DNA from: Octopus vulgaris
Taxonomy: Eukaryota
NCBI GenBank assembly: GCA_951406725.2
Contig: OX597814.1
Span: forward strand, 12,462,001 to 12,526,000
Direction: 5' to 3'
DNA: 64,000 nt
Below are positions 1-60,436 of the stretch, in pieces; position 1 is the stretch's first letter, and each line of letters starts with the position of its first letter. A program made the translations under genes and the position numbers. The notes under the pieces are model-generated. The model did not search any database. It was not told the origin of the DNA and saw only the letters and a program-made list of their open reading frames with translations.

Positions 1-532
1 TATATATATATATACACGCACAGAGTTCGACTGAGCTCTACATTGCTTAAGATTCTTGTGCGTAGCACACGTCCGAATTGTAAGATGTTCGGATAAAGTG
101 CATGTTGTAAACAACGACCCCAGACTTATTCGAACATCTCACGAGGTAGACATGTACTACACGCACCCACAAAACTTTAAGAGATGTAGAAATGCGTTAA
201 ACTGTAATTTAATATCTCTAACCATAACCAAATATGTTGACTGCTATCTTATTTCATTCTTTTACTCACTCACTCGTGTACATCTATAGGTGCACATATG
301 GGTGACCAAAAAATACAACTGTCAAGCAACTCTGTGGTATTGAGCAGAATATTTGCTCTAATGATATTTCTGCTCCAGCAACTCACCGCTGAATCTGTCT
401 GACATGTAATGGGAAATAGGTCAGTTTATAAGTGTTGATGTCCAGGTCAAAAACAAGAAAGTTTGAAGGGAAGAGTAGTCATTTCCTTTGATTTCTAGAT
501 AGAAGCAAATGGCAAATAACACTTACTGACAA

Positions 533-606
<74 letters not shown>
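533..606. repeat. (TAA)n microsatellite, 5' flank of Dong element
   Basis: Direct read; further (TAA)n at 2563-2592 and 3149-3241. Confidence 0.98.
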
Positions 607-2559
607 GGCGTTTGATAGCATCCCCCACACATGGATCCTCGAAACACTAGCCATTAACAAAGTAGCACCAACAATCATAAAATTCATAGAGCACTCTATG
701 AATAAATGGCAAACAGTCCTACACCTCCAAACAAAAGAGGGACTCATGAAAACAAAAGACATCCCCATTAGAAGAGGAATATTCCAGGGAGATACGCTCT
801 CTCCACTCCTTTTCTGCTTAGCACTGTCACCTCTATCTGATATGCTAAATAGAACTGGATGCGGATATAAATGTTACGGCCAAACGATCAGCCACCTTTT
901 ATATATGGATGACCTAAAACTATACGCTGCAAATGACAAACAGCTGGAAACACTATTAAAGACAGTTCATGGATTTACCAAAGAAATATATATGAAATTT
1001 GGATTAGAAAAATGCGCCAAAGTAACCATGAAAAGAGGAAAACTAGTTAAGAGTAACAACATCACACTAGATGAAGCAAATGAAATAAAAGAATTAGACC
1101 AAAGCCAAACTTACAAATACTTAGGAATCCATGAACTAGATAAGACACAACACACACAAATGAAAGAGAAAATAAAAAAGAATATTATAGACGAGTTAGA
1201 TCAATACTAAACACAGAGCTCAATGCTAAAAACAAGATAATAGGTATCAACACTTTAGCTGTCCCAGTTATAAGTTACAGCTACAATATCCTTAACTGGA
1301 CACGAAATGAACTGACCAAAATAGACAGGAAAACAAGAAAAATAATGACAGGATCTAGGATGCATCACCCAAAATCTGACATAGAAAGACTATATATACA
1401 ACGTATAGAAGGTGGTAGAGGCCTTATACAGCTGGAAAACTACTATAAAATAACCACCATAGGACTGCAAAAATATCTACTTCAGAAGGAAGGAAAACTG
1501 ATCCAGATAGCGGCAAAACACGAGCAAAACAAAAAACTGTTCTCAGTATTTAAGGAAGCTGACAAATACAAACAAGAAATCATACCACCTAATAAACATG
1601 AAGAAGAAGAAGAAGATGAAGAAACAACAAAAGCTATAAAAAAAATGAAATCCAAACTAAAAATAGAACAGCAACGAACCATGATAAAACGATGGCAAGA
1701 AAAGCCCCTTCATGGTAAATACTGGACTAAACTAAACGCAAAAGAAATAGACAAAGAAAAATCCCAGCAATGGTTGAGAAGCTCAGGACTCAAAGCAGAA
1801 ACAGAGGGATTTTTAATTGCAGCACAAGACCAAAGCCTCCCCACCAGAAATTACCAAAAACATGTAATGAAAAGAAATATTACAAGTAACTGCAGAATAT
1901 GTGGAGATGGACAAGAAACAATAAATCATATTATCTCTAGCTGCCCAGTCCTGGCTAAGAAGGAATATATTCACAGACATGACAGAGTTGGAACTTACAT
2001 ACATTGGAAGCTATGCCAACATTATGGAATAACAACAGAAAAAAGATGGTATAGGCACACACCAGAAAAGGTCACAGAAAACGAGAAAGCAACCATACTC
2101 TGGGATATGCCGATACACACAGATAGAGAAATTAAGGCCAACAGACCAGATATAGTTGTCAGAGACCATGAAGAAAAAAATGCTTTCTAATTGATGTATC
2201 AGTACCGGCAGATGACAACGTGTCTCTAAAAGAAATGGAGAAACTCTCAAAATACAAAGACCTGGAAATAGAGGTAACTAGAATGTGGAATCTGAAAACA
2301 GAAACAATTCCTATCATAGTAGGTGCATTAGGCATGATAAAAAAATATTCAGACAAATACATAACAAAAACACCAGGACTTACAAACACATATAACATAC
2401 AGAAAATTGCACTACTGGGCACTGCACACATCCTACGCAGAACACTTTCCATACAATAACCATCAGAGCATCACAACAAATCACAGCACATACCCAAGGC
2501 ACACAGAGCTGTGCTCGGTAGTGAAGTGAAAGCACGCTATAAAAATAAAAATAAAACTA

Positions 2560-8104: not shown

Positions 8105-8394
8105 AATTAATTGGCATTCCTTCGATACAACTTGACAAAATCAAAGCATGTCACTTCGGGTATTTCCGTGGATGCAAAGGACAGTTCGATTCTGTTTTCT
8201 TCTTCTTTGAAATTTGCGGATTTTACATAAACACATGAAACAGGTAAGAACAAATATGCAAGGTTTTTTTTTTTTCTTCAAGTTTAAAATTGCTGGCATA
8301 ATTTCGTTATATCTATTACTCCACAACCCACGGAAATACCCGAAGTGAAATGTTTTGATTTTGTCGAGTTGTATCGAAGGAATGCCAATTAATT
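8105..8394. mobile_element. MITE (element 8113-8386) with ~59-bp TIRs starting GG and 8-bp TSD AATTAATT, Merlin-like
   Basis: GGCATTCCTTCGATACAACT...TTCCGTGG at 8113-8171 is inverted at 8328-8386; AATTAATT at 8105-8112 and 8387-8394. Confidence 0.8.
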
Positions 8395-17979: not shown

Positions 17980-18149
17980 TGTATGTATATATATATACAT
18001 AAGAGGTTAGCTCAGTTAGAGGTTAAAATATGCGTCTAAGGGATAGAAGTATCCATTATATTAGCGGTATATTATCTATGTTTAACCAGGGACATATATA
18101 TGCAAGCATATTATGCTCATAAATTATAGGTAAAGACAAGGATAAATAG

Positions 18150-18318
18150 TAAAGAAAACAGAAAATGGAGAAATGTGGATGAACAATTGACTTACATCAA
18201 TTATTATTTATTAATTCAATGCAAATAGATTGCAGTCTACTTGTATTGAATTAATAAATAATAATTGATGTAAATCAATTGCTGCTCATCAATATTTCTC
18301 CATTTTCTGTTTTCTTTA
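18150..18318. repeat. Imperfect fold-back inverted repeat (~83-bp arms) ending at (TA)n
   Basis: TAAAGAAAACAGAAAATGGAGAAAT... vs ...ATTTCTCCATTTTCTGTTTTCTTTA, centre ~18233. Confidence 0.9.
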
Positions 18319-18334
18319 TATATATATATATATA

Positions 18335-18391
<57 letters not shown>

Positions 18392-19513: not shown

Positions 19514-19515
<2 letters not shown>

Positions 19516-19865
19516 TTAATAATATCAGGGTAATACAGATTTTAGAAATTTTTACTACCAGTGGGCCAGCGTGTAGAAAAATTAGTCAAGAGACTATATA
19601 TTATTCATATAAATACAGTGTACATTTAAACACATAAGAGGTATCTGTCATTGGTATCCTGGCACGCTAGAAGGAACAGCCAAAGTCCAAACCATTATTA
19701 GGGATAAAAACTTCGAAGGGAATGCAAAATAAAAATACTATCTATCTCCTGGACCATTTTTCATTCCCTTCGAAGTTTTTATCCCTATTAGGGGTTTGGC
19801 TGTCTCTTCTAGCGTGCAGGATTCCTATGACGGATACCTCTTATGTGTTTAAATGTACACTGTAT
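19514..19865 (-). mobile_element. (TA)n-embedded insert with ~110-bp inverted arms (19613-19730 / 19756-19865)
   Basis: ATACAGTGTACATTTAAACACATAAGAGGTATC... inverted at right end; (TA)n on both sides; terminal hairpin motif at 19527-19569. Confidence 0.7.
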
Positions 19866-22800
19866 ATATATATATATATATACATGTGTGTGTGTTTGTG
19901 TGTTTGTGTGTGTATATAAGTATATATTTTTATTTGTATATATAAATAAGTATAAATACACACACATACATACACACATATATACATACATACATACATA
20001 CATACATACATACATACATACATACATACATACATACATACATACATACATACATACATACATGCATAGATATGTGTATGTATGTGCGTGTGCGCGTGTC
20101 TCCATTCTACAGACTGGTACTATTGTCCATAAGCTCTTTTAATAAATGTGAATTAATCATAACTCAGAAATCCAGCTTTCTTAAATTATACAGATGTATT
20201 AATTGCTGACTGCACCTATGTGCATCTCATTAATTATTTCCTTATGTGTACTTGTGATCTGGGAATTAAAAATTGCAATGCCTTTTTAAACGAGAAACTC
20301 CAAAGAAAATTTTCTAACTTCTGCTTGAGATGTAAAATGAACTTCGGGTTACTCCCTACCCCCGCAGCAACAATGTCAATGATCTGAACTCCCAGACAGC
20401 AATAGTAAACAAACTTTGCAAGTTAATTATTATCTTCAAAATGGTACCTTAGGTTAAAGTGAATTATTCATGAATTTTGAAATCTAAATAATAATCACGG
20501 GACACTTAATTAAGTGGAAAATATTTCGGAGCAATTTCTAGAAATTTAATTAGATAATTGAAATATTCTAAGGAAGGATAGTGCAAACTCATTTAAGAAT
20601 TAATGTAACAGAAAAAATAACTTATAATGACGTAGTTCAAATGTATTAGTTACGTTTTGCCTAAGTACAATGGTACAATCGCGTATATTTTATAATGGAG
20701 GAGAAATAGCGCTGTGAATATCTAATAACTGCGGGTTTCACACACTCTCGCTTTGCATTCATGCTATTACTTAGCTTGCAATTCTTATAGAATTTATTAT
20801 GTCACCACACAGTCAAGTGAGGACGGTGGAATGAGATGTTTCGTTCTGTTACAGCCACTGCATAATAATCGCAGTCAAGGTGCTTAACGACCGGCATAAG
20901 CTGCAGTAGAGTTCAGAAATATCAAGGTCTATTTTATTCTGCACTTCCTTTACTTTATACAATAGAACCGACCTTGTTGATGGCAATGGTACCAAATTTG
21001 TAATAGGAAATTTCTGCCTTCATATACGCAAATCTGCCTAACAGATTCGATTTTACCGTGATTCAGATTCAGATAGGAACCAGAAAAAGTATTAATAAAT
21101 GTTCAATGTATTTTTTTACATATTTATCCGCATCTGCTAGATGTTACCTAAGCTCATAACATGCGAGATTTAAATTCAGTCAATAAAATGTATGTAACTA
21201 AATTTACTAAGTCATTATTTTCTTTGTTTTACCTTATTGCCAACTTATCATCATATAGGTGTCGTACGAGTCAATATGCGGGATTCTACTTAATCAGTCA
21301 TCTGCAACAGAAAGCAAAAATCCCACTAAAAATACAACCTACCACCTTGAAAGGGAAAACATATTCAATAATGTAGTTGTAAACACAATACCCCTCCCCC
21401 CAAAAAAAAAGACGGGATGGTCATAGATGGAAAGCCTTTAATCATAGAGCTCTGCATAACCATGACTCGCCTGAAGTTAAACAGCACCAACAGTAATTTT
21501 TTGCTATAGATTATCTATAGAAAATGATTTTATATATTGGTATGAAGCCAAAAGCTTTATTTTTCTTAGAATAGAAAAAAAATTGGTTGTTGATGCCTTT
21601 CCTAAAGGTACCATGAACATAAGTGAACTGAAATTACTATATCTGTGGATTTGACTTATGTAAAGAGCTAGTATATAGCACTTGCAAATGTATATGTAAA
21701 TAATACGATTGTTTAGAGCGGGTGAGGTTCTATTGAGTGTAGGGCAGGTGGGATTCTTAAGATTTATGTCTCCATAGTCCGCTTGCGTTAACCTCTGAAA
21801 TAAGTTCCTTTCCCTCATGGTTGGCAATGACATTCTTTACGAATATATCAAGACATTACCTAGTAGATAGCTTATTCATCATAATATATTCTTAAATGTT
21901 TAACTGATGTCTGTCTATTTATTTTGGCTTATGTTGTGCAAATATGAAAATAAAGAAAAAAACAGCAAAAAATATATGTAAAAGAAACATCATACAAATT
22001 CCTGTTATTGTCCAAGGACTAGAAAATATAACCCATGAGGCAGAAATTCCAGAATGTTCCATTTTAATGCTCTTGTAAAAGCAAAATCTGTGTCGATATT
22101 ATTCGGTGGATTTAGACTGAATGTTTGTTTTATCACTTTTTTTTATCTTTTCAAGCAGGCACAGGAAATTGACTCATAAGTTAAACACCTAAAAACTTTG
22201 GTTCCTAACGGTAAGCTATTAGTATCGCTGACTATTTGTGTTCATCCCCTGCTGATGTAGAGAAAATCAAGGTGTATGGTAAGGTTTCAGGGCCTCTGTT
22301 TCACTGGTTACACACACACACATATAACATACACTCAGAATTAGCGATAGAATTATAAAAATACTCATTGACAAACATTTATAATGCTTATCCCCTAATG
22401 GCTTAATGCGCTTCGTTTAACAGATATGAACATATAACTTAGCTTTCTATAATTAGGTATATTATCATTAAAAGTCATAGTTTCTGTAGACCATTGAATT
22501 AATGTCTTCATTAAATCATTCATTTGCTTAGAACCCGCTTACTGAAAGTATGCAGACAATTATAACAAGCGGTTATCAGTTCGGATTTCCTCTTATACTA
22601 TTTTTTCTAAGAAGGATGTCTCTAGGAAATAATTTTCTTATATTCATGTGCCCTGCGATAAAAGTGAGATAGAGGTGAGTGATGCTCAATAAGAAGCATG
22701 GTTTACTCCTGATAATGCGTTGACATTCTCAATGTGTAGGCTTCTCAATGGCAAGTACTCAGAGTACTTCAAATTAGCAGACCATATACATGGGTGTGTG

Positions 22801-33530: not shown

Positions 33531-33534
<4 letters not shown>

Positions 33535-34559
33535 AGTCACGGCTTGTTGAACATGTCAAGGGACCTATATTTTGAGCCTGGCCAAAGCAGTAATTTTTTA
33601 GCTATTTTTAGAAATCTTGTAAACAACATTTCCCAGGGATTTTTACATTTCAATTATCATCATCATCATTATCATCTCTTTTATTATTATTGTCAACAAC
33701 ATAGGATGTTCAGTTAAGAGGTTTGTTATTGTTGGTGGTGGTAGGTGTAGCTATGGTAATAGAACTTTAACCCCCCAAATAAGATTATTTTTACTAACTT
33801 TTATTTTGACTTAGCTAGTAATTTCCTGCTATCGTCATCATGAGCACCTTTCGTATTGTTGTTGTTGTTAGTGGTAGTGGTCGTAGCAGAAGAAATAGTA
33901 TCGCTAAGTATTTGTATTATTGTTTTGATTAGCTTGAGTTGGAATTTATTAATAAAGTTCTTTTCTCTGATTTTTCTCTCAATTTCACTTGGACTGTATA
34001 GTTTCTGGAATGAAAATATATTTTCCGGCCGCTTGTTGCTAGATGGTTACTCAAAGGTAACTGACAGACATCTTGGTCTCTAATTTGCTGTCGGTGCACA
34101 CGTGAACGTTCAGATTTCCAGTCTGACCTATATATAGTTCTTCACAATTCTGGCATTTGATGCAGTATATTAAATTTCTGCTTTTGCAATTCATTTTTGC
34201 GTTAGTGAATATTTTTGTGTTCATATATTGGCTAGTAGGTATGAACTGGCATGTGCAACATCGGCTATCATTGCTTTAAGATACAGTGAATGATTGGTCT
34301 TTGTTGCAAAGATCAAACTTTGCTTTTGCTATTAATTTTCTCAAGTTTTTAGGCCGTCTTCTACTAAGAGCTCGATCTATGATTATATCTTTTAATTCAT
34401 TACTTTAAGCAATGATTGGTAGGTTTATTTTTGGGTTTAAAGTTCTATTACCACATCTATTACCACCAATATTTCTAAAAATAGCTCAAGAATTACTGCT
34501 TTGGCCAGAGTCAAAATACAGGTCTCTGGACATGTTCAACAAACCGTGACGTGACGCCT
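33531..34559. mobile_element. Non-autonomous DNA transposon with ~85-bp TIRs
   Basis: GTCACGGCTTGTTGAACATGTC..TGGCCAAAGCAGTAATT..TAGAAAT (33536-33615) inverted at ~34472-34550; no ORF. Confidence 0.82.
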
Positions 34560-34977: not shown

Positions 34978-35175
34978 TTACCTCATTTCCATAGAACATT
35001 ATGCCCTCTTTGTCTCAAATCGTATACCTCGCCCACTTCTCTTAACTTCATTGCGCCCGCTATTTCTCTTTCTTCTGACGAAAGACTACTTCTTGAAACG
35101 TTGGGACTTTATCATTCTTCTTCTGAAGCATTACACACCATACCTATCAAACTTTGTTTTATCCTGTACACATTT
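34978..35175 (+). mobile_element. ~200-bp hammerhead-bearing element next to (TATC)n
   Basis: Homologous to 44970-44992 + 45371-45550; follows (TATC)n 34882-34976. Confidence 0.75.
35071..35106 (+). ncRNA. Minimal hammerhead ribozyme (Penelope type)
   Basis: tctt-CTGACGA-aaga ctact tctt-GAAA-cg-TT-ggga; AACGTT palindrome replaces stem III. Confidence 0.65.
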
Positions 35176-35429
35176 ATTTAATGTTTATTGTCTTTACTCT
35201 CTCTCTTTATATGTATATATACATATACATACATATATATATATATATATAATAATAAATATTAGGGAATAAATCCAAATTTACAGGGAAAAAATCAGAT
35301 TTAGGATTAAATCCAATTTTATAGTAAAATATTATATAATATTATTAGAGACAAAACCACTATTTTGCAAAACAAACAAGGAAAGACTTAATCAATACAT
35401 AAAATTTTAATAAAAAGTCAAAAAAACCG

Positions 35430-35472
35430 CCACTACAATTGTTTCTTGTCTTGATCGACAATCTTCAGGTGG
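35430..35472 (-). ncRNA. Minimal type-I hammerhead ribozyme
   Basis: Minus strand: ccac-CTGAAGA-ttgtc gatcaa gacaa-GAAA-caattg-TA-gtgg. Confidence 0.82.
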
Positions 35473-35532
35473 ACTTCCAATAAGTCAGTTTCAAATTATG
35501 AAGTCATAATTTGAAACTGACTTATTGGAAGT

Positions 35533-35574
35533 CCACCTGAAGATTGTCGATCAAGACAGAAACAATTGTAGTGG
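35533..35574 (+). ncRNA. Minimal type-I hammerhead ribozyme (inverted copy, 1-nt deletion in stem II)
   Basis: ccac-CTGAAGA-ttgtc gatcaa gaca-GAAA-caattg-TA-gtgg. Confidence 0.72.
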
Positions 35575-35660
35575 CGGTTTTTTTGACTTTTTATTAAAAT
35601 TTTATGTATTGATTAAGTCTTTCCTTGTTTGTTTTGCAAAATAGTGGTTTTGTCTCAAAC

Positions 35661-35762
<102 letters not shown>

Positions 35763-37779: not shown

Positions 37780-37945
37780 TCGATATAATTCTGATATAGC
37801 ACTACGTAAAGAAAAACTTCTCTGATCTCGCGACACTCTCCTCCGAAAACCCACTGCTCATGTAGCACCCTTACTCGGTTGTATTTACGCCTTCAGAAGA
37901 CTGTTTCATCTATCTCAAAGATCTTTCCTGGACCCCTTATCTGAA
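37780..37945 (-). mobile_element. Merlin (ISXO2/IS1595-like) transposase fragment
   Basis: IRGPGKIFEIDETVF*RRKYNRVRVLHEQWVFGGECRE. Confidence 0.8.
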
Positions 37946-37988
37946 AATTCTGAAAATGAAATTAATTTTTTCTATAAATTAATAAACA

Positions 37989-38057
37989 AAAAGTTAATAA
38001 CTTTTAATTTTAAAAGTTAATAACTTTTAATTTTAAAAGTTAATAACTTTTAAATTT
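37989..38057. repeat. 3 x 23-bp tandem repeat, each unit palindromic (AAAAGTTA-A-TAACTTTT)
   Basis: AAAAGTTAATAACTTTTAATTTT repeated. Confidence 0.9.
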
Positions 38058-38399
38058 GCAAATTTTGGGTAATTTTACCAACTGAGACCCATCGTTGTAC
38101 GCATGACCGTAAATCTCACACTGGTCTCTGTTTCCATAGTAACAAGCAAAGCTGTTGTCTGCCCTGTTTTCATTGTAACAAGGATGCTGTACTTATCGAG
38201 ACTGTGACACTTTCATCTCTGCAACCACCATCACTATTTTTGACGAACGTTATCACTTTGTACCTGTGTACTTTTGGATCTTAAACTTCTGCACCTCATT
38301 ATCATCATTTTGACCTGTATTTTCCTGGACATTTTCTACAACATGTCAATTCTACATCTAGATATAGTATGACCACAGCAAAATCATTTAACCTTTCGT

Positions 38400-39240
38400 G
38401 TATGATGGAGGAATTTGAATACCGTAGAGGATGCTGTTTCTTACTTTCAAGAGAAGGGTGCTATGTCTAAAAATCATGTTCTGTAAAGTGAGACATTATA
38501 TGAAAAAAAAAAAAGATGCAACGCAGGAAAGATACTGATGCTCCCGAAAATGATGCAACGCGTGTGTGTCACTCTGAAGAAGTTCATGGTTGGAAGGTGG
38601 CGCCTTTCTTCTTAGTACTGTACTTCCTTTCTCATATTCCTGGGTCAAGGAATTAACTTCAGTCCGTTTTTCTGTTGAAGTACTGGCTATGGATCAAAGC
38701 ACGGTTGTTGATTACAACAGGTATGCTCGGGAGAAATGTGCGGAGGATATGCACTATAGCCCAGGTCAGATAGATGGTGTCGGCAGCAAAGGTGAGATAG
38801 ACGAAACAGTCTCCTCGAGGCGTAAATACAACCGAGGAAGGGTGCAACATGATCAGTGGGTTTTCGGAGTTGTGTGTCACGAGATCAGAGACGTTTTCTT
38901 TACGCGGTGCCATATCGGAATCGCGACACGTTACAGGAGTGCAAACGACAGTCGACTCTTCCAGGAACAACAGTTTTTAGTGACTTGTGGCGACCTACTC
39001 TCACATTCTGGAGGTTAATGGATATAATTTTCTACAAAGAACGGGAACCACAGAGTCCAGTTTATCAACCCGAAAGATGGGATCCAACGCAACAGGTTGA
39101 AAGTACACGGGACTGTCTAAAATGACTGTCTAAAACGACGCTGTGAGACCCACTGTTATATAGTAGACTCATATCTTTGCGAATTTATGTGGCAGAGGAG
39201 GTAACAAAATTGTGATTTGTTCAAAAGCTACTAGAGTGTA
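38400..39240 (+). mobile_element. Degenerate Merlin (DDE_Tnp_IS1595/ISXO2) transposase
   Basis: GEIDET..RRKYNRGR..QWVFG; VP.RNRDTL..LPGTTVFSDLWR; TQQVES; DSYLCEFMW.R. Confidence 0.88.
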
Positions 39241-45370: not shown

Positions 45371-45439
45371 TCGTCTCTCTGTCTCAAATCGTATACCTCC
45401 CCAGCTTCTCTTAACTTCATTGCGCCCGCTATTTCTCTT

Positions 45440-45475
45440 TCTTCTGACGAAAGACTTCCTCCTGAAACGTTAGGA
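45440..45475 (+). ncRNA. Minimal hammerhead ribozyme (homolog of 35071-35106)
   Basis: tctt-CTGACGA-aaga cttcc tcct-GAAA-cg-TT-agga. Confidence 0.62.
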
Positions 45476-45560
45476 CTTTGTCCTTCTTCTCCTGGAGCAT
45501 TAAACACCATATCTATCAAACTTTGTTCTTCCTGTACAACATTATTTGTACAGATAGGTA

Positions 45561-53709: not shown

Positions 53710-54011
53710 AATAACCTTTGCATTTGATTTTTTAATGTCTCTACCCCCATACTTCCGTGAGTTGAGTTGAGCAAACACTATATGAGAGAGGTTTTCTTTA
53801 AGTATTGGAGATAGTTTTTAAAAAGGTTTTTTTAGCTGCTATTTCTAATGAGTTCAGTATGCGGCAAAGTAATTTATTTTACTAAGCCCTTTTATATAAT
53901 GTAATAATTTGAATTCGCCTTAAATGGTCCCTTTGTATACTGAATACTTGGTGAAATTGATTAATTAATTAATTTTACCCTCAATTGTTGAAAATATATA
54001 TATATATATAT

Positions 54012-56870
54012 AACTTAGAATAACTTAGAAAGGTTTTGGCCAGTATTGGCCCAGGCCATGTCTAACTTAATAGCACCACCTGGCGAAGTCTTTCAGTTCA
54101 GGATTTGGGCACCAAGGCCCATTCGAGCAGAGAGTTATTGTTTGCGGAGACATATCCGGGTGTGGGTGGTTTCTCCGGTACTGTTTGAAGGAATTTGTCC
54201 AAAGACTTCTTGAATTTTGTGTGGTCAGTTTCTTTTTTGACGTGTCCTGGTGTAATGTTGAAGAGAGCGGGTCCAATTGAGGTGAAATAGTTGTGCCGTA
54301 TTGTCGTTATGTGATGCGATTTAGATTTTTGTTGTGGACGGATGGCACGTGGTCCAAGCCTTGGATGTATTTTGAAGGTGATGCCAACATCATTCGGACA
54401 GTGCGTCTTTGGAGTGAATACAATTTCAGCTTCTCTAGTCTACCCCAGTAGTCAAGGTCTGACATGCCATCTATCTTTTTTGTGATTGACCTTTGGGGAG
54501 CTTCAATTCTCATAATATTTTGTTTTGTGTAGGGAGACCACAGTGGACAGCAATATTCAAGGTGGGGTCGGGCAAAAGTGGAGAAGAGAAGGATTATAGC
54601 GTGGGAATCTCTCGACTGGAAGGTTCTGAGAATCCAGGAACACATTCTGCGGGCCATGTCAACTTTGCTGCTTATATGTGTAGCCCAGCTTATGTTGTTG
54701 TCCACTGTTACTCCCAAGTCTCTGATGTTGTTGGATGCCATGAGAATTTCTCCAGAAGGAAGAGAGTATGGGAGTTTCAGAGCGTCCTCCCTTCCAAAGT
54801 GGATCAGTTCGAATTTGTCTTCATTTAGCAACATGTTATTCTTTTCCGTCCATTGGACAACAGCCAGTAGGTCTGACTGAAGGTTTATTCGGTCATCCAC
54901 GCCATTGATGACCTTCTGGAGCTTGGAATCATCAGCGAAGGTTCTGATGTTACTGTGTTTGATGGTGTCAGTAATATCATTTATGTAGATGATGAAGAGA
55001 AGTGGGCCCAACACAGTGCCTTGTGGGACACCACTGCTGACTTTGGCTGGGCTAGGATTTGACTCCTTCGACTACAACATGTTGGGTTCTGTTAGACAGG
55101 AAGCACTTGATCCACTACAGCAGCTTTCCAGTGACACCAATATTGGACAGCTTTCTCAGAAGGATCTTATGATCAACCCTGTCAAAGGCCTTGCTAAAAT
55201 TAAGGTAGATGACATCAGTGTTGGAACCTTCTCCCAAGGCTCTCAAAATGTCATCAAAATGATGCAGTAGCTGCGTCAGGCAATCTCTCCCATTACGGAA
55301 TCCATGCTTGTTGGGGTTCAGCATATTATGACTCTCAAGGAAGTGAGTCATACGCGATCTCAGCACCCTCTCAAATACCTTGATGATATGAGAGGTGAGT
55401 GAGATTGGACGGTAATTCACGGCAAGCGATTTGTTTCCTTTTTGAAAACTTGGACAACAGACTGGGATAGAAGGTCTTCTGGTATATATCCAGCATCCAG
55501 TGAGTTCCGCCAGAGATTGGCTAGAGGGGGTGCAAGTTGGTTTTGTCACATCTTCAAGACACAAGCAGGGAACCTATCGGGACCTACTGCTGAATTATGC
55601 TTCATTTCCTTTATTGCTGCTAAGACATCAGGAGCGCCAAATGTTATGTCCGATAAAGTGTATTGGGGAGTAACATCACTGATACAGCCCAGATCAGTCA
55701 TATCAGGATTGCTGAAAACAGAGCAATATTGTTTCTGCAATATCTCTCCCATGGTTTTGGCATTGTCTTGAAGAGTACCATTTTCATCAATCAGAGGGCC
55801 AACAGTAGAACCAGTGACTCTGTGTTTTTTTGCAAATGAAAAGAACACTTTGGGATTGAGTTTGATCTTCTCAATGGCCCAGGCCTCTTCAGCTCTTCTC
55901 GCTGACTATTGATGATAGACATCATGTTGTTTTGGAGTTTATGTTTTTTAATCTCTAGCGACGAGATGGCAGGTACGTTGGTGTGTTGCTGTTGACAGTA
56001 TTTCAGAATGTTGATCTTTTTGTTAATTCTTTTAATTTTCCTTATGAGAGATTTTCTATTCCTGGGGATTCGACACTTAGATTTGTTTGCAGATCTTAAT
56101 GGGGTGTGTCTTGCACATATGTTCGTGATGGTGTCTACAAGTGACTGCCAGGACTTTTTGATGTTAGTGGGTGTGTATGTGTGCGTGAAGGACCAATCGA
56201 CTTGTGCAAGATCATTATTGATCGCTTCCCAGTTTGCATTGTGGAAATCCATAGTGTCAAATGGATGAACAGGAGGGATGACATTTGTCTTGCATTTTGG
56301 CCAGTGAAATCTCAGATCACAGAGAACCATGTCATGATCGGAGAGTAGGGTTTTCTCCACTGCAATATTGTGGATAGTATCAGTGTGATTGCTGAAAACT
56401 AAGTCTAAGACGTTTTTGTGACATCTCGTTGGTTCGAGTACCAGTTGGGACAGGAAGAAATCATCCATGAAGTCAAGAAGCGATTCCACTGACTTCCTGT
56501 CAGGGGTTGAGAGAGAAGAACCTGGCGGCAGACTGTTTGTAGACCAGTCAATCCCGGGAAGGTTGAAGTCTCCCATCATTAAAATGCTGTCAGGTTGACA
56601 CTGCTGAATGAAACACTTTATGCTGTTGAGGCATTCCTTGAAGCATGGTAGGGGCGTTTGGGGGGGTCTGTAGAGCCCAACTACTGTTAAGTTGTTGGTT
56701 TGACTGAATACAGCGACTGCTTCGCAGTATCCATTGGAAAATATGTTCATGGCTTCTGTTGAGAATGAATCATGGACATAAATGGCAGTCCCACCCTTTC
56801 TTCTGCCAGCACGATCAGCACGAATGGTTTTGAAATTTTTAACTTTCACCTCGGCTTCCAAGTGGAGGTC
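54012..56870 (-). mobile_element. CR1-like LINE ORF2 (APE endonuclease + RT), 5'-truncated, frameshifted
   Basis: APE: GGTAIYV, GLYRPP, MGDFNLP, PTR..NVLDLVF, LSDH. RT: NYRPISLTS, FSKAFDRVDH, GVPQGTVLGPLLF, FADDSK. 3' tail (TTCTAAGTTA)2 at (TA)n. Confidence 0.93.
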
Positions 56871-56874
56871 ACTA

Positions 56875-57915
56875 AGATGGGTTTATGTATTCGCTTTGCA
56901 AGGTTGTTGATGTGAATTCGTGTGTTGAAACGGATTTTGTTGTATTTGAGGATGGTCGTGTTGCCATCTTAGCCAATGAAAACACACGCATTATATATTT
57001 GGTGGTCACTTGCTTCACCTTTATTTTATATAAATTGTATTTCGGCCAGAGTTCTTTCGTCACACATCTGTTGACCTCATCAGTGGTCCTTTGCTTTCTT
57101 CCCTCTTTTTTGTGTCCTACCTTCCTAACAATCTGCCATTTTTTATTCCCATTGTATGTGTCTTTATTTGCGCATGCGTATATCCCTGAGTGTGTCTATG
57201 TTTAGTAAGTGTGTGTGTGGGAATGTGTATGATACTTGCATTATCAATATCCCTTGTTAATTCACGTTCGTTTAATTTACTTTTATTTATTTCATTCATT
57301 TGTTTTTATCTACTTACTTTTTCACTTATTTCTTTATTGTATTAATTTAATTTAATTTATTATATTTTGTTTATGTATATAATTATTTAATTCCATTTAT
57401 TTATCAGTCTATTGTATTAGTTTCATATTATTATTACTTTACGGGGATCTTACACTGTCATAGGTTGTGGTGTGTGGGGCGTGTGTACTAGTGTTCCATT
57501 CTAGTTTTCTATTTAGGCCAGGTTTATTTTCTATTATGTGTGTAGCTTCCGTAATTTGTCTAAGTGTTGCGTCCGTTCTGTGATGGACAAAATTCTAACT
57601 TCTATGTTGTTGAGTGAGTCACCGCGTTCCCACTCGGCGTGCTGGTATAGAACCAATGAGCTCTTCTCTTCCTTAAGTTCTCTTCAATGCTCATTTACCC
57701 GCACTCCTCTGCTCCCAGCTATCTCTCCTACGTACGTTGTTTTCTTAGTTCTGCACTGCCCCTCTGCGGGCTAAATCTACATACAATACAGTTCTTATCA
57801 GTATAGGGGATTCTATTAAAAGGGTAGGTTCTGCTGATTAGGGATTTGATAGGGTTACTTGGCCTTTCTACAACCTTAATTCTTAGCTCAAGCTTGTCTA
57901 GGGCCTTTCTAAAGT
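56875..57915 (-). mobile_element. Penelope-like element (Neptune-type) 3' fragment: GIY-YIG endonuclease relic plus 3' non-coding region
   Basis: Minus strand KVVERP..IKSLI..PF..CIVC; C..K.TYVGE..SRGVRVNEH; LYQHA; RQITEATHIIENKPGLNRKLEW; hammerhead downstream. Confidence 0.82.
57044..57089 (-). ncRNA. Type-I hammerhead ribozyme in the Penelope 3' region
   Basis: Minus strand: gg(a)cca-CTGATGA-g gtca acagatgtg tgac-GAAA-g aa c-TC-tggcc. Confidence 0.75.
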
Positions 57916-57940
57916 GGTATGCCAGTATATCTATTTTGAA

Positions 57941-59299: not shown

Positions 59300-60436
59300 T
59301 ACTCTTCTCTATTCTGGGTACAAGGCCCAACATTTTGAGGGGGTGCCGGTCGACTAGATCGACTCCAGTATACAACTGGCACTTAATTTATCGACCCCGA
59401 AAGGATAAAAGGCAAAGTCGACCTCGGCGGAATTTGATCTCAGAACGCACAGACAGACGAAATACTTATTTCTTTACTACCCACAAGGGGCTAAACAAAG
59501 AGAGGACAAACAAGGACAGACAAACGGATTAAGTCGATTATATCAACCCCAGTGCGCAACTGGTACTTATTTAATCGACCCCGAAAGAATGAAAGGCAAA
59601 GTCAACCTCGGCGGAATTTGAACTCAGAACGTAACGGCAGACGAAATAACTATTTCTTTACTACACACAAGGGGCTAAACATAGAGAGGACAAACAAGGA
59701 CAGACAAACGGATTAAGTCGATTCTATCAACCCCAGTGCGTAACTGGTACTTATTTAATCGGCCCCGAAAGGATGAAAAGGCAAAGTCGACCTCGGTGGA
59801 ATTTGAACTCAGAACGTAACGGCAGACGAAATAACTATTTCTTTACTACCCACAAGGGGCTAAACATAGAGAGGACAAACAAGGACAGACAAACGGATTA
59901 AGTCGATTCTATCAACCCCAGTGCGTAACTGGTACTTATTTAATCGACCCCGAAAGGATGAAAGGCAAAGTCGACCTCAGCGGAATTTGAACTCAGAACG
60001 TAACGGCAGACGAAATAACTATTTCTTTACTACCCACAAGGGGCTAAACATAGAGAGGACAAACAAGGACAGACAAACGGATTAAGTCGATTCTATCAAC
60101 CCCAGTGCGTAACTGGTACTTATTTAATCGACCCCGAAAGGATGAAAGGCAAAGTCGACCTCGGCGGAATTTGAACTCAGAACGTAACGGCAGACGAAAT
60201 AACTATTTCTTTACTACCCACAAGGGGCTAAACATAGAGAGGACAAACAAGGACAGACAAACGGATTAAGTCGATTCTATCAACCCCAGTGCGTAACTGG
60301 TACTTATTTAATCGACCCCGAAAGGATGAAAGGCAAAGTCGACCTCGGCTGAATTTGAACTCAGAACGTAGCGGCAGTCGATATACTGCTAAGCTTTTCG
60401 CCCGGCGTGCCAAAGTTTCTGCCAGCTCACCGCCTT
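59300..60436 (-). repeat. SINE family C with tandem array of five ~184-bp internal units
   Basis: Units start at 59467, 59651, 59836, 60020, 60204; SINE head at ~60385-60436; alternative tail at 59300-59466. Confidence 0.93.

What the first reader, a model, noticed from the sequence alone, without database searches (positions are those of the whole stretch)
35255..35656. Third independent family with the same plan: (TA)n, 3' hairpin, hammerhead, fold-back, (TA)n
Seen: 154-bp arms with a 2-nt spacer, each containing ccac-CTGAAGA-ttgtc..gaca(a)-GAAA-caattg-TA-gtgg. The intact ribozyme is on the minus strand, pointing to the unpaired extension at 35255-35347 that abuts (TA)n. The polarity (ribozyme strand runs toward the non-inverted end) matches the 51.6-kb and 52.9-kb elements, supporting a shared mechanism across unrelated sequences.
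Basis: partly seen in the sequence, partly recalled or inferred. Interest (0 to 1): 0.7.

Follow-up and report, generated by a model that had tools for sequence, protein, structure and literature searches.

The report
Fold-back stub of Penelope-like retroelement
This 420-base mirror-image insertion, with a hammerhead ribozyme motif in each arm and an extra tail on one side, sits in a TA repeat and is likely the truncated end of a Penelope-like jumping gene, a pattern already described, so it is real but mostly ordinary.

Summary
Arms 35333-35501 and 35504-35671 (2-nt spacer, 3 differences) each carry a type I hammerhead motif (0 of 20,000 shuffles give one); an ~80-nt tail lies on the left only, and (TA)n lies on both sides. 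Public contigs show a large repeat family (15,946 contigs laid in one run) whose copies end in TA repeats at two places on the same strand: after the tail (~35252) and without it (~35333). Depth is lower toward the 5' centre. This matches the published insertion unit of endonuclease-bearing Penelope-like elements (PLEs): 5'-truncated copy, inverted copy, one-sided tail, hammerhead near the 3' end. The (TA)n target and ribozyme layout resemble the Hydra clade. No protein-coding partner was found and no genome was held, so clade, autonomy and breakpoint variability are untested. The plus-arm ribozyme is not evidently broken; polarity rests on the tail. One small extra: in all three unrelated families in the window the tail-less end falls at an internal TATATA, a possible target mimic. 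Verdict: new member of a known kind, low interest.

The parts
35233..35251 (.). (TA)n, left flank; likely target site, itself the TA-rich end of a neighbouring hammerhead-bearing repeat
35252..35332 (-). one-sided 3' tail (~80 nt); long 3' end of the family
   Evidence: family contigs run from tail into TA repeats and bridge tail to arm
35291..35320 (-). 13-bp hairpin with two G-U pairs, predicted on minus only
   Evidence: variant 35296 turns a U-G into U-A, variant 35309 breaks the pair next to the loop region
35333..35338 (-). internal TATATA at which the tail-less (short) 3' end falls
   Evidence: only TATATA in 247 nt; loose TA ends before 35333 in 40 contigs of X1 and 15 of X4
35333..35501 (-). 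left arm: 5'-truncated copy of the element's 3' end (pLTR-like), continuous with the tail
35430..35472 (-). type I hammerhead motif, family form: stem I 4 bp, stem II 5 bp, palindromic 8-nt helix III; predicted cut between 35434 and 35433
35502..35503 (.). 2-nt spacer at the head-to-head fold-back centre
35504..35671 (+). right arm: inverted, tail-less copy; one base missing and two substitutions near its end
35533..35574 (+). second hammerhead motif, stem II 4 bp plus one unpaired base; predicted cut between 35570 and 35571
35666..35696 (.). (TA)n, right flank, followed by (TG)n; its start overlaps the arm's end

Best explanation
The insertion is a head-to-head pair of copies of one hammerhead-bearing sequence with a tail on one side, set in (TA)n, and is likely a 5'-truncated insertion made by the reverse transcriptase and GIY-YIG endonuclease of a Penelope-like element, probably of a (TA)n-targeting clade such as Hydra or Neptune. 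Steps: (1, inferred) the endonuclease nicks (TA)n; (2, inferred from PAc biochemistry) the nick primes cDNA at the RNA's tail end, next to the hairpin, so the plus strand from 35252 rightwards is first-strand cDNA; (3, inferred) synthesis stops after ~250 nt, 29 nt past the ribozyme, and the cDNA folds back and copies itself; (4, position shown, cause inferred) the second arm stops at the internal TATATA and joins the other target end, so it lacks the tail. The ribozyme would cut only as a dimer, probably with protein help. Whether the RNA came from a coding element or a non-coding mini-element is open.
For: Anatomy. Large family: 15,946, 1,610, 3,435 and 171 contigs laid in 4 of 4 runs; 20 of 23 listed runs hold part of it, 9 studies, 4 organism labels. 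Two same-strand 3' ends in TA: loose TA ends before 35333 (40 contigs X1, 15 X4) and 6 of 8 joints skip the tail. Depth over the ribozyme is below the 3' arm peak in 4 of 4 runs, as 5' truncation predicts. 0 of 10 listed variant sites hit a core base; the one inside the motif (35440) keeps helix III paired by G-U on the ribozyme strand. The isolated 43-nt motif cofolds as the dimeric hammerhead, -22.0 against 2 x -6.5 kcal/mol. Published PLE unit: inverted 5'-truncated copy and one-sided tail (PMC8557442; PMC3846280); dual hammerheads 100-700 bp apart on opposite strands (PMC4209133); tail = distance between two RT start sites (PMC11167929); 26 of 27 Hydra families target (TA)n and Penelope-13_HM carries an inverted 5'-truncated copy with a second hammerhead. 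Elements at 51.6 and 52.9 kb add partial tandems of 200 and 61 nt, the pLTR signature.
Against: No RT or endonuclease gene is linked to this sequence; 0 of 7 short motifs occur in the Craig et al. supplement, Hydra-1_Obim included. Tail is ~80 nt, not the usual 30-40. No strand-changing joint among 8. Tail depth is about half the arm peak in only 2 of 4 runs; depths are summed contig values, not copy numbers, and fall at the reference edge for technical reasons. Core conservation is not significant: 10 variants in 266 nt predicts about 1.6 in 43 nt, 1 seen. With 68-91 nt of context an alternative fold that hides the core beats the hand-built dimer (-27.6 against -21.2). The commonest tail variant (35309, about 80% of X1 depth) breaks one hairpin pair. 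No Rfam hammerhead model matched. Two substitutions between the arms near the short end fit pure self-copying imperfectly.
Confidence: 0.85

Rival explanations
1. Sub-case of the best reading: the family is a non-coding mini-PLE or retrozyme-like element of a few hundred bases, moved in trans, rather than stubs of a coding element.
For: The 51.6 and 52.9 kb elements are whole units of 482 and 558 nt with a partial repeat and only one ribozyme per unit; PLE-derived retrozymes are described (bioRxiv 2026.07.22.740005; PMC7761336). Contigs of X3 and X4 leave the window's sequence at 35481, so 5' parts differ among copies.
Against: No tandem repeat in this copy; its 5' sequence beyond 35501 is unseen; ordinary PLE stubs look the same.
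Confidence: 0.4
2. A DNA fold-back MITE with TA target preference; the hammerhead is incidental.
For: Near-perfect palindrome, TA flanks, a recurrent end at 35333 that could be a TIR end.
Against: A family-wide one-sided tail bridged to the arm in contigs with 3-7 differences (X4 records 20-22); lower depth toward the centre; motif beyond chance; strand-specific hairpin; same plan with partial tandems at 51.6 and 52.9 kb.
Confidence: 0.05
3. Two separate insertions side by side: a small TA-flanked element (the tail) and a palindrome.
For: An AT-rich, length-variable linker separates tail and arm; some contigs join the tail to other arm sequences (loose ends behind 35326 and 35344).
Against: Depth does not dip at the linker (1.2-2.2 million in X1 over 35319-35345) and variants at 35337 and 35347 occur in 100 and 83 X1 contigs, so the join is family-wide.
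Confidence: 0.04
4. The palindrome is an assembly artefact.
For: No listed contig shows the centre junction; arm differences at 52.9 kb are mostly single-base gaps.
Against: Symmetry stops at a family end, flanks differ, the arms differ at 3 places, and older 78-87% palindromes of the same plan lie at 18.1 and 19.6 kb.
Confidence: 0.02

Closest known systems
Insertion unit of endonuclease-positive Penelope-like elements (pLTR, adjacent inverted 5'-truncated copy, one-sided tail); PMC8557442, PMC3846280
   Same: Head-to-head inverted copy, palindromic junction, tail on one end only, hammerhead near the 3' end, AT-rich target.
   Different: No ORF or direct pLTR pair in this copy; tail ~80 nt (100-120 nt in the two neighbours) against 30-40; no target duplication can be read in (TA)n.
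Hydra-clade PLEs (Hydra-1_Obim, Penelope-13_HM); Neptune as alternative
   Same: (TA)n target in 26 of 27 Hydra families; hammerhead layout with an extra base on each side of a 4-bp stem II and a palindromic helix III; ribozyme mostly 30-150 nt from the 3' end by my arithmetic (97 and ~178 here).
   Different: No sequence match to the published consensus set (0 of 7 motifs); clade is defined by protein, which is absent.
PLE minimal hammerheads (PMC4209133) and PAc of Anolis (PMC11167929)
   Same: Type I topology, weak palindromic helix III needing a dimer, two alternative 3' ends flanking a stem-loop.
   Different: PAc starts reverse transcription at sites not homologous to the cut DNA; here the short end lies at an internal TATATA matching the target. 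Cleavage untested.
Metazoan non-LTR retrozymes (PMC7761336; bioRxiv 2026.07.22.740005)
   Same: Short, apparently non-coding, type I hammerhead, likely moved by PLE proteins.
   Different: Defined by head-to-tail tandems with two or more ribozymes; this copy is head-to-head with none in tandem.

Membership tests
EN+ Penelope-like element insertion | Inverted 5'-truncated copy joined head-to-head | tested here: met
EN+ Penelope-like element insertion | Optional tail: two alternative 3' ends on one strand | tested here: met
   (loose TA ends at 35333; 6 of 8 joints skip the tail); tail longer than published
EN+ Penelope-like element insertion | Type I hammerhead in the 3' pLTR region, sense toward the 3' end | tested here: met
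   no Rfam model matched
EN+ Penelope-like element insertion | Variable 5' truncation and variable fold-back point among copies | tested here: inconclusive
   depth lower 5' in 4 of 4 runs, but 0 of 8 joints change strand and depth is not copy number
EN+ Penelope-like element insertion | PLE RT plus GIY-YIG gene sharing this 3' end | not testable with these tools
   no genome held; 0 hits in 4 collection scans; listed contig pieces under 135 nt
EN+ Penelope-like element insertion | Direct partial tandem (pLTR) | tested here: inconclusive
   absent in this short copy, present in the 51.6 and 52.9 kb elements
Hydra clade | (TA)n target | tested here: met
Hydra clade | RWK and DKT motifs, CxCX5C linker, no CCHH | not testable with these tools
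   no protein linked to this family
Naiad clade | Lack of a canonical hammerhead | tested here: not met
   complete motif present; PMC8557442
Non-LTR retrozyme | Head-to-tail tandem with at least two ribozymes | tested here: not met
   none in this copy; other copies unseen
Hammerhead ribozyme | Self-cleavage | not testable with these tools
   folding only: for, against
MITE | Both ends fixed and symmetric, uniform length | tested here: not met
   family-wide one-sided tail and uneven depth; whole copies not seen

The most novel reading that the evidence does not exclude
In (TA)n-targeting PLEs the enigmatic tail is set by a target mimic: an internal TATATA just upstream of a 3' hairpin, where the fold-back strand anneals to, or the endonuclease cuts like, the (TA)n target. 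Three of three unrelated hammerhead families in this window place their tail-less end there, and this genome may be swarming with non-coding mini-PLEs built from only ribozyme, TATATA and hairpin.
Probability: 0.25. Interest if true: 0.5.

Novelty: new member of a known kind. Interest (0 to 1): 0.2.

Why it matters
As it stands it adds one abundant, apparently unlisted PLE-type repeat family that annotation pipelines would probably file as a MITE or unknown. If the internal TATATA does set the short end, it would tie target choice to the origin of the tail and of the inverted arm, which PMC8557442 lists as unexplained features of PLE transposition, and these 250-600 nt elements would be compact substrates for an in vitro test.

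Tried and rejected
Own-genome search: none held. Exact 22-mers in metagenome (2 scans), viral and prokaryote contigs: 0 hits. Rfam: 0 at gathering score in the window; 36 sub-threshold matches around the locus, none a hammerhead, the best ones miRNA models matching the palindrome. No RNA holder listed; X9 is only guessed to be RNA, so nothing is claimed on expression. Absence of strand-changing joints: treated as uninformative, since contigs drop rare junctions. Similarity between this tail and that of the 19.5 kb element: rejected, 450 of 1000 shuffles score as well. Strand-specific tail folding: holds for this element and 52.9 kb (1 of 300 against 142 of 300), not for 51.6 kb (16 against 19 of 300). 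The putative PLE relic at 57-58 kb as partner: no Pfam, Atlas or homolog support and no similarity to this element. Three loose-end motifs are not in the window. Our findings index: nothing by place, sequence or first word search. PMC5785218 not held; only its title was seen in a reference list. One search crashed and was rerun without constraints.

Full report
Observation. The element spans 35252-35671. The arms 35348-35501 and 35504-35656 match except for one missing base in the right arm and enclose AG; they run on 15 nt with two mismatches to 35333 and 35671. The unpaired part is 35252-35332. (TA)n lies on both sides, so no target duplication can be read. Each arm holds a type I hammerhead motif pointing outwards. 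A strict descriptor finds 4 motifs in the window and 0 in each of 100 block-shuffled windows; 0 of 20,000 shuffles of the left half give one. Rfam has no matching model.

Ribozyme. Helix III is an 8-nt palindrome. The 43-nt motif cofolds as a dimeric hammerhead at -22.0 kcal/mol against -6.5 per monomer. With 68-91 nt of context a G-U-rich alternative that hides the core is preferred (-27.6 against -21.2 for my hand-built dimer), so easy cleavage is not predicted; PAc's ribozyme needed protein (PMC11167929). The right-arm motif keeps all core bases and a 4-bp stem II with one unpaired base, a feature described for PLE motifs (PMC4209133). None of the 12 shown of 14 indel rows removes that base, so the left form looks like the family form, but the right is not evidently dead. 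Polarity is better read from the tail: its 13-bp hairpin has two G-U pairs and folds on minus (5 of 200 shuffles as good) but not plus (59 of 200).

Family. No genome is held. Of 23 listed runs, 20 hold part of the element and 12 half or more, from 9 studies and 4 organism labels. I laid 4 of these runs on 35238-35503 only: 15,946, 1,610, 3,435 and 171 contigs, most 90-99% alike. Copies run from the tail into TA repeats, with only length changes at 35248-35255. A second end exists: TA loose ends before 35333 (40 contigs in X1, 15 in X4; 24 of 186 loose-end rows were shown), and 6 of 8 joints skip from about 35258 to about 35346. Tail and arm are joined family-wide: depth does not dip at the linker, and X4 records 20-22 bridge it with 3-7 differences. 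Depth over the ribozyme is about 2-4 times below the 3' arm peak in three runs and about 10 times in X9; tail depth is about half the peak in X1 and X3 but not in X4 or X9. These are summed contig depths, not copy numbers. Of 10 variant sites none hits the core; 35440 keeps helix III paired by G-U on the ribozyme strand, 35296 improves the hairpin, 35309 breaks a pair. One variant in 43 nt against about 1.6 expected is not significant. No joint changes strand, but this locus's own centre is not listed either, so breakpoint variability is untested. X3 and X4 contigs leave the window's sequence at 35481, nine bases upstream of stem I.

Neighbours. The 51.6 kb element is a 482-nt unit with a 200-nt direct repeat and a short inverted piece; the 52.9 kb element is a 558-nt unit with a 61-nt repeat and arms of about 510 nt (508 of 509 aligned bases identical, 6 gap positions). 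The three share no similarity at E<0.5. All have the ribozyme strand pointing to a one-sided tail of 80-120 nt with a hairpin; strand asymmetry holds for two of three. In three of three the tail-less end falls at an internal TATATA: the only one in 247 nt here, the only one in 613 nt at 52.9 kb, one of four sites in 678 nt at 51.6 kb. This was noticed after the fact, n is 3, the elements are 66-74% AT, and the exact end is blurred by the (TA)n flank.

Mechanism. Shown: anatomy, two ends in TA, family size. Inferred: a PLE endonuclease nicks (TA)n; the nick primes cDNA at the tail end; synthesis stops after about 250 nt; the cDNA folds back, copies itself and stops at the internal TATATA, which anneals to the other target end or is cut like target. 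Two templates primed from both strands by a protein dimer is an alternative for the second arm; the two substitutions near the short end, one at a site variable in the family, would fit it.

Comparison. An inverted 5'-truncated copy at the 5' end and a 30-40 bp tail at one end are standard for PLEs (PMC8557442; PMC3846280). Dual hammerheads 100-700 bp apart on opposite strands were reported in 2014. The tail equals the distance between two RT start sites in PAc. Hydra families target (TA)n in 26 of 27 rows, have this ribozyme layout, and Penelope-13_HM is annotated with an inverted 5'-truncated copy and a second hammerhead. Naiads target (TA)n but lack canonical hammerheads. The host looks like an octopus from its SINEs and microsatellites; that is recalled, from no call. 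Hydra-1_Obim has a different ribozyme sequence, and 0 of 7 motifs of this family occur in that supplement. It works like a PLE insertion; membership lacks the protein test. Seven searches listed no paper on this family or on a TATATA-set short end, judged from listings; Repbase, Dfam and subscription journals were not searched.

What I saw of each paper. PMC8557442: passages, section 11, supplement searches and parts 2 and 52 of 59. PMC4209133 and PMC11167929: parts 1-2 of 4. PMC3846280: passages and Discussion. bioRxiv 2026.07.22.740005: parts 1-2 of 5; its supplements were not seen and may list related families. PMC7761336, PMC8969392, PMC10294476: passages. Earlier scan notes reach the same reading in other genomes; they are not independent support.

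Verdict. Real, a new member of a known kind, interest 0.2.

Noticed in passing
window 35006-35205 and 45375-45547 (+): A fourth hammerhead-bearing repeat family, two copies 89% alike, with a 4-nt palindromic helix III; the element studied sits tail-to-tail in the TA-rich end of the first copy.
   Followed up: partly
window 57050-57930 (-): Decayed frame with CxxC and a YVGE..R..EH motif resembling a PLE linker and GIY-YIG end (recalled pattern), followed by a hammerhead-like motif at 57083; no Pfam, Atlas or homolog support.
   Followed up: partly
window 18002-18335 and 19514-19885: Older (87% and 78%) palindromes with a one-sided extension between (TA)n runs but no hammerhead core: same plan, perhaps truncated before the ribozyme or Naiad-like.
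   Followed up: partly
window 53899-53998 and 35291-35320: Two unrelated tails both hold a 13-bp hairpin with a 4-nt loop and two G-U pairs; their ribozymes also share a GTC-GATNNN-GAC tip in stem II.
   Followed up: partly
loose end behind 35481: Some copies have a different sequence upstream of the ribozyme that reads on minus as a pyrimidine tract ending in AG, like the splice acceptor next to helix I in Drosophila Penelope.
   Followed up: no
loose ends behind 35344: The tail is also joined to diverged arm sequences, so several subfamilies may share this 3' end.
   Followed up: no
window 59349-60385: Head-to-tail array of 5.5 copies of a 184-bp piece of the common SINE-like repeat.
   Followed up: no
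window 530-2459 (+), 54098-56882 (-): LINE remnants with RVT_1 hits; the first is interrupted by an (AAT)n run.
   Followed up: no
window 8105-8394, 33532-34550, 37788-38921: Elements with terminal inverted repeats of 67-130 bp, probably DNA transposon derivatives.
   Followed up: no
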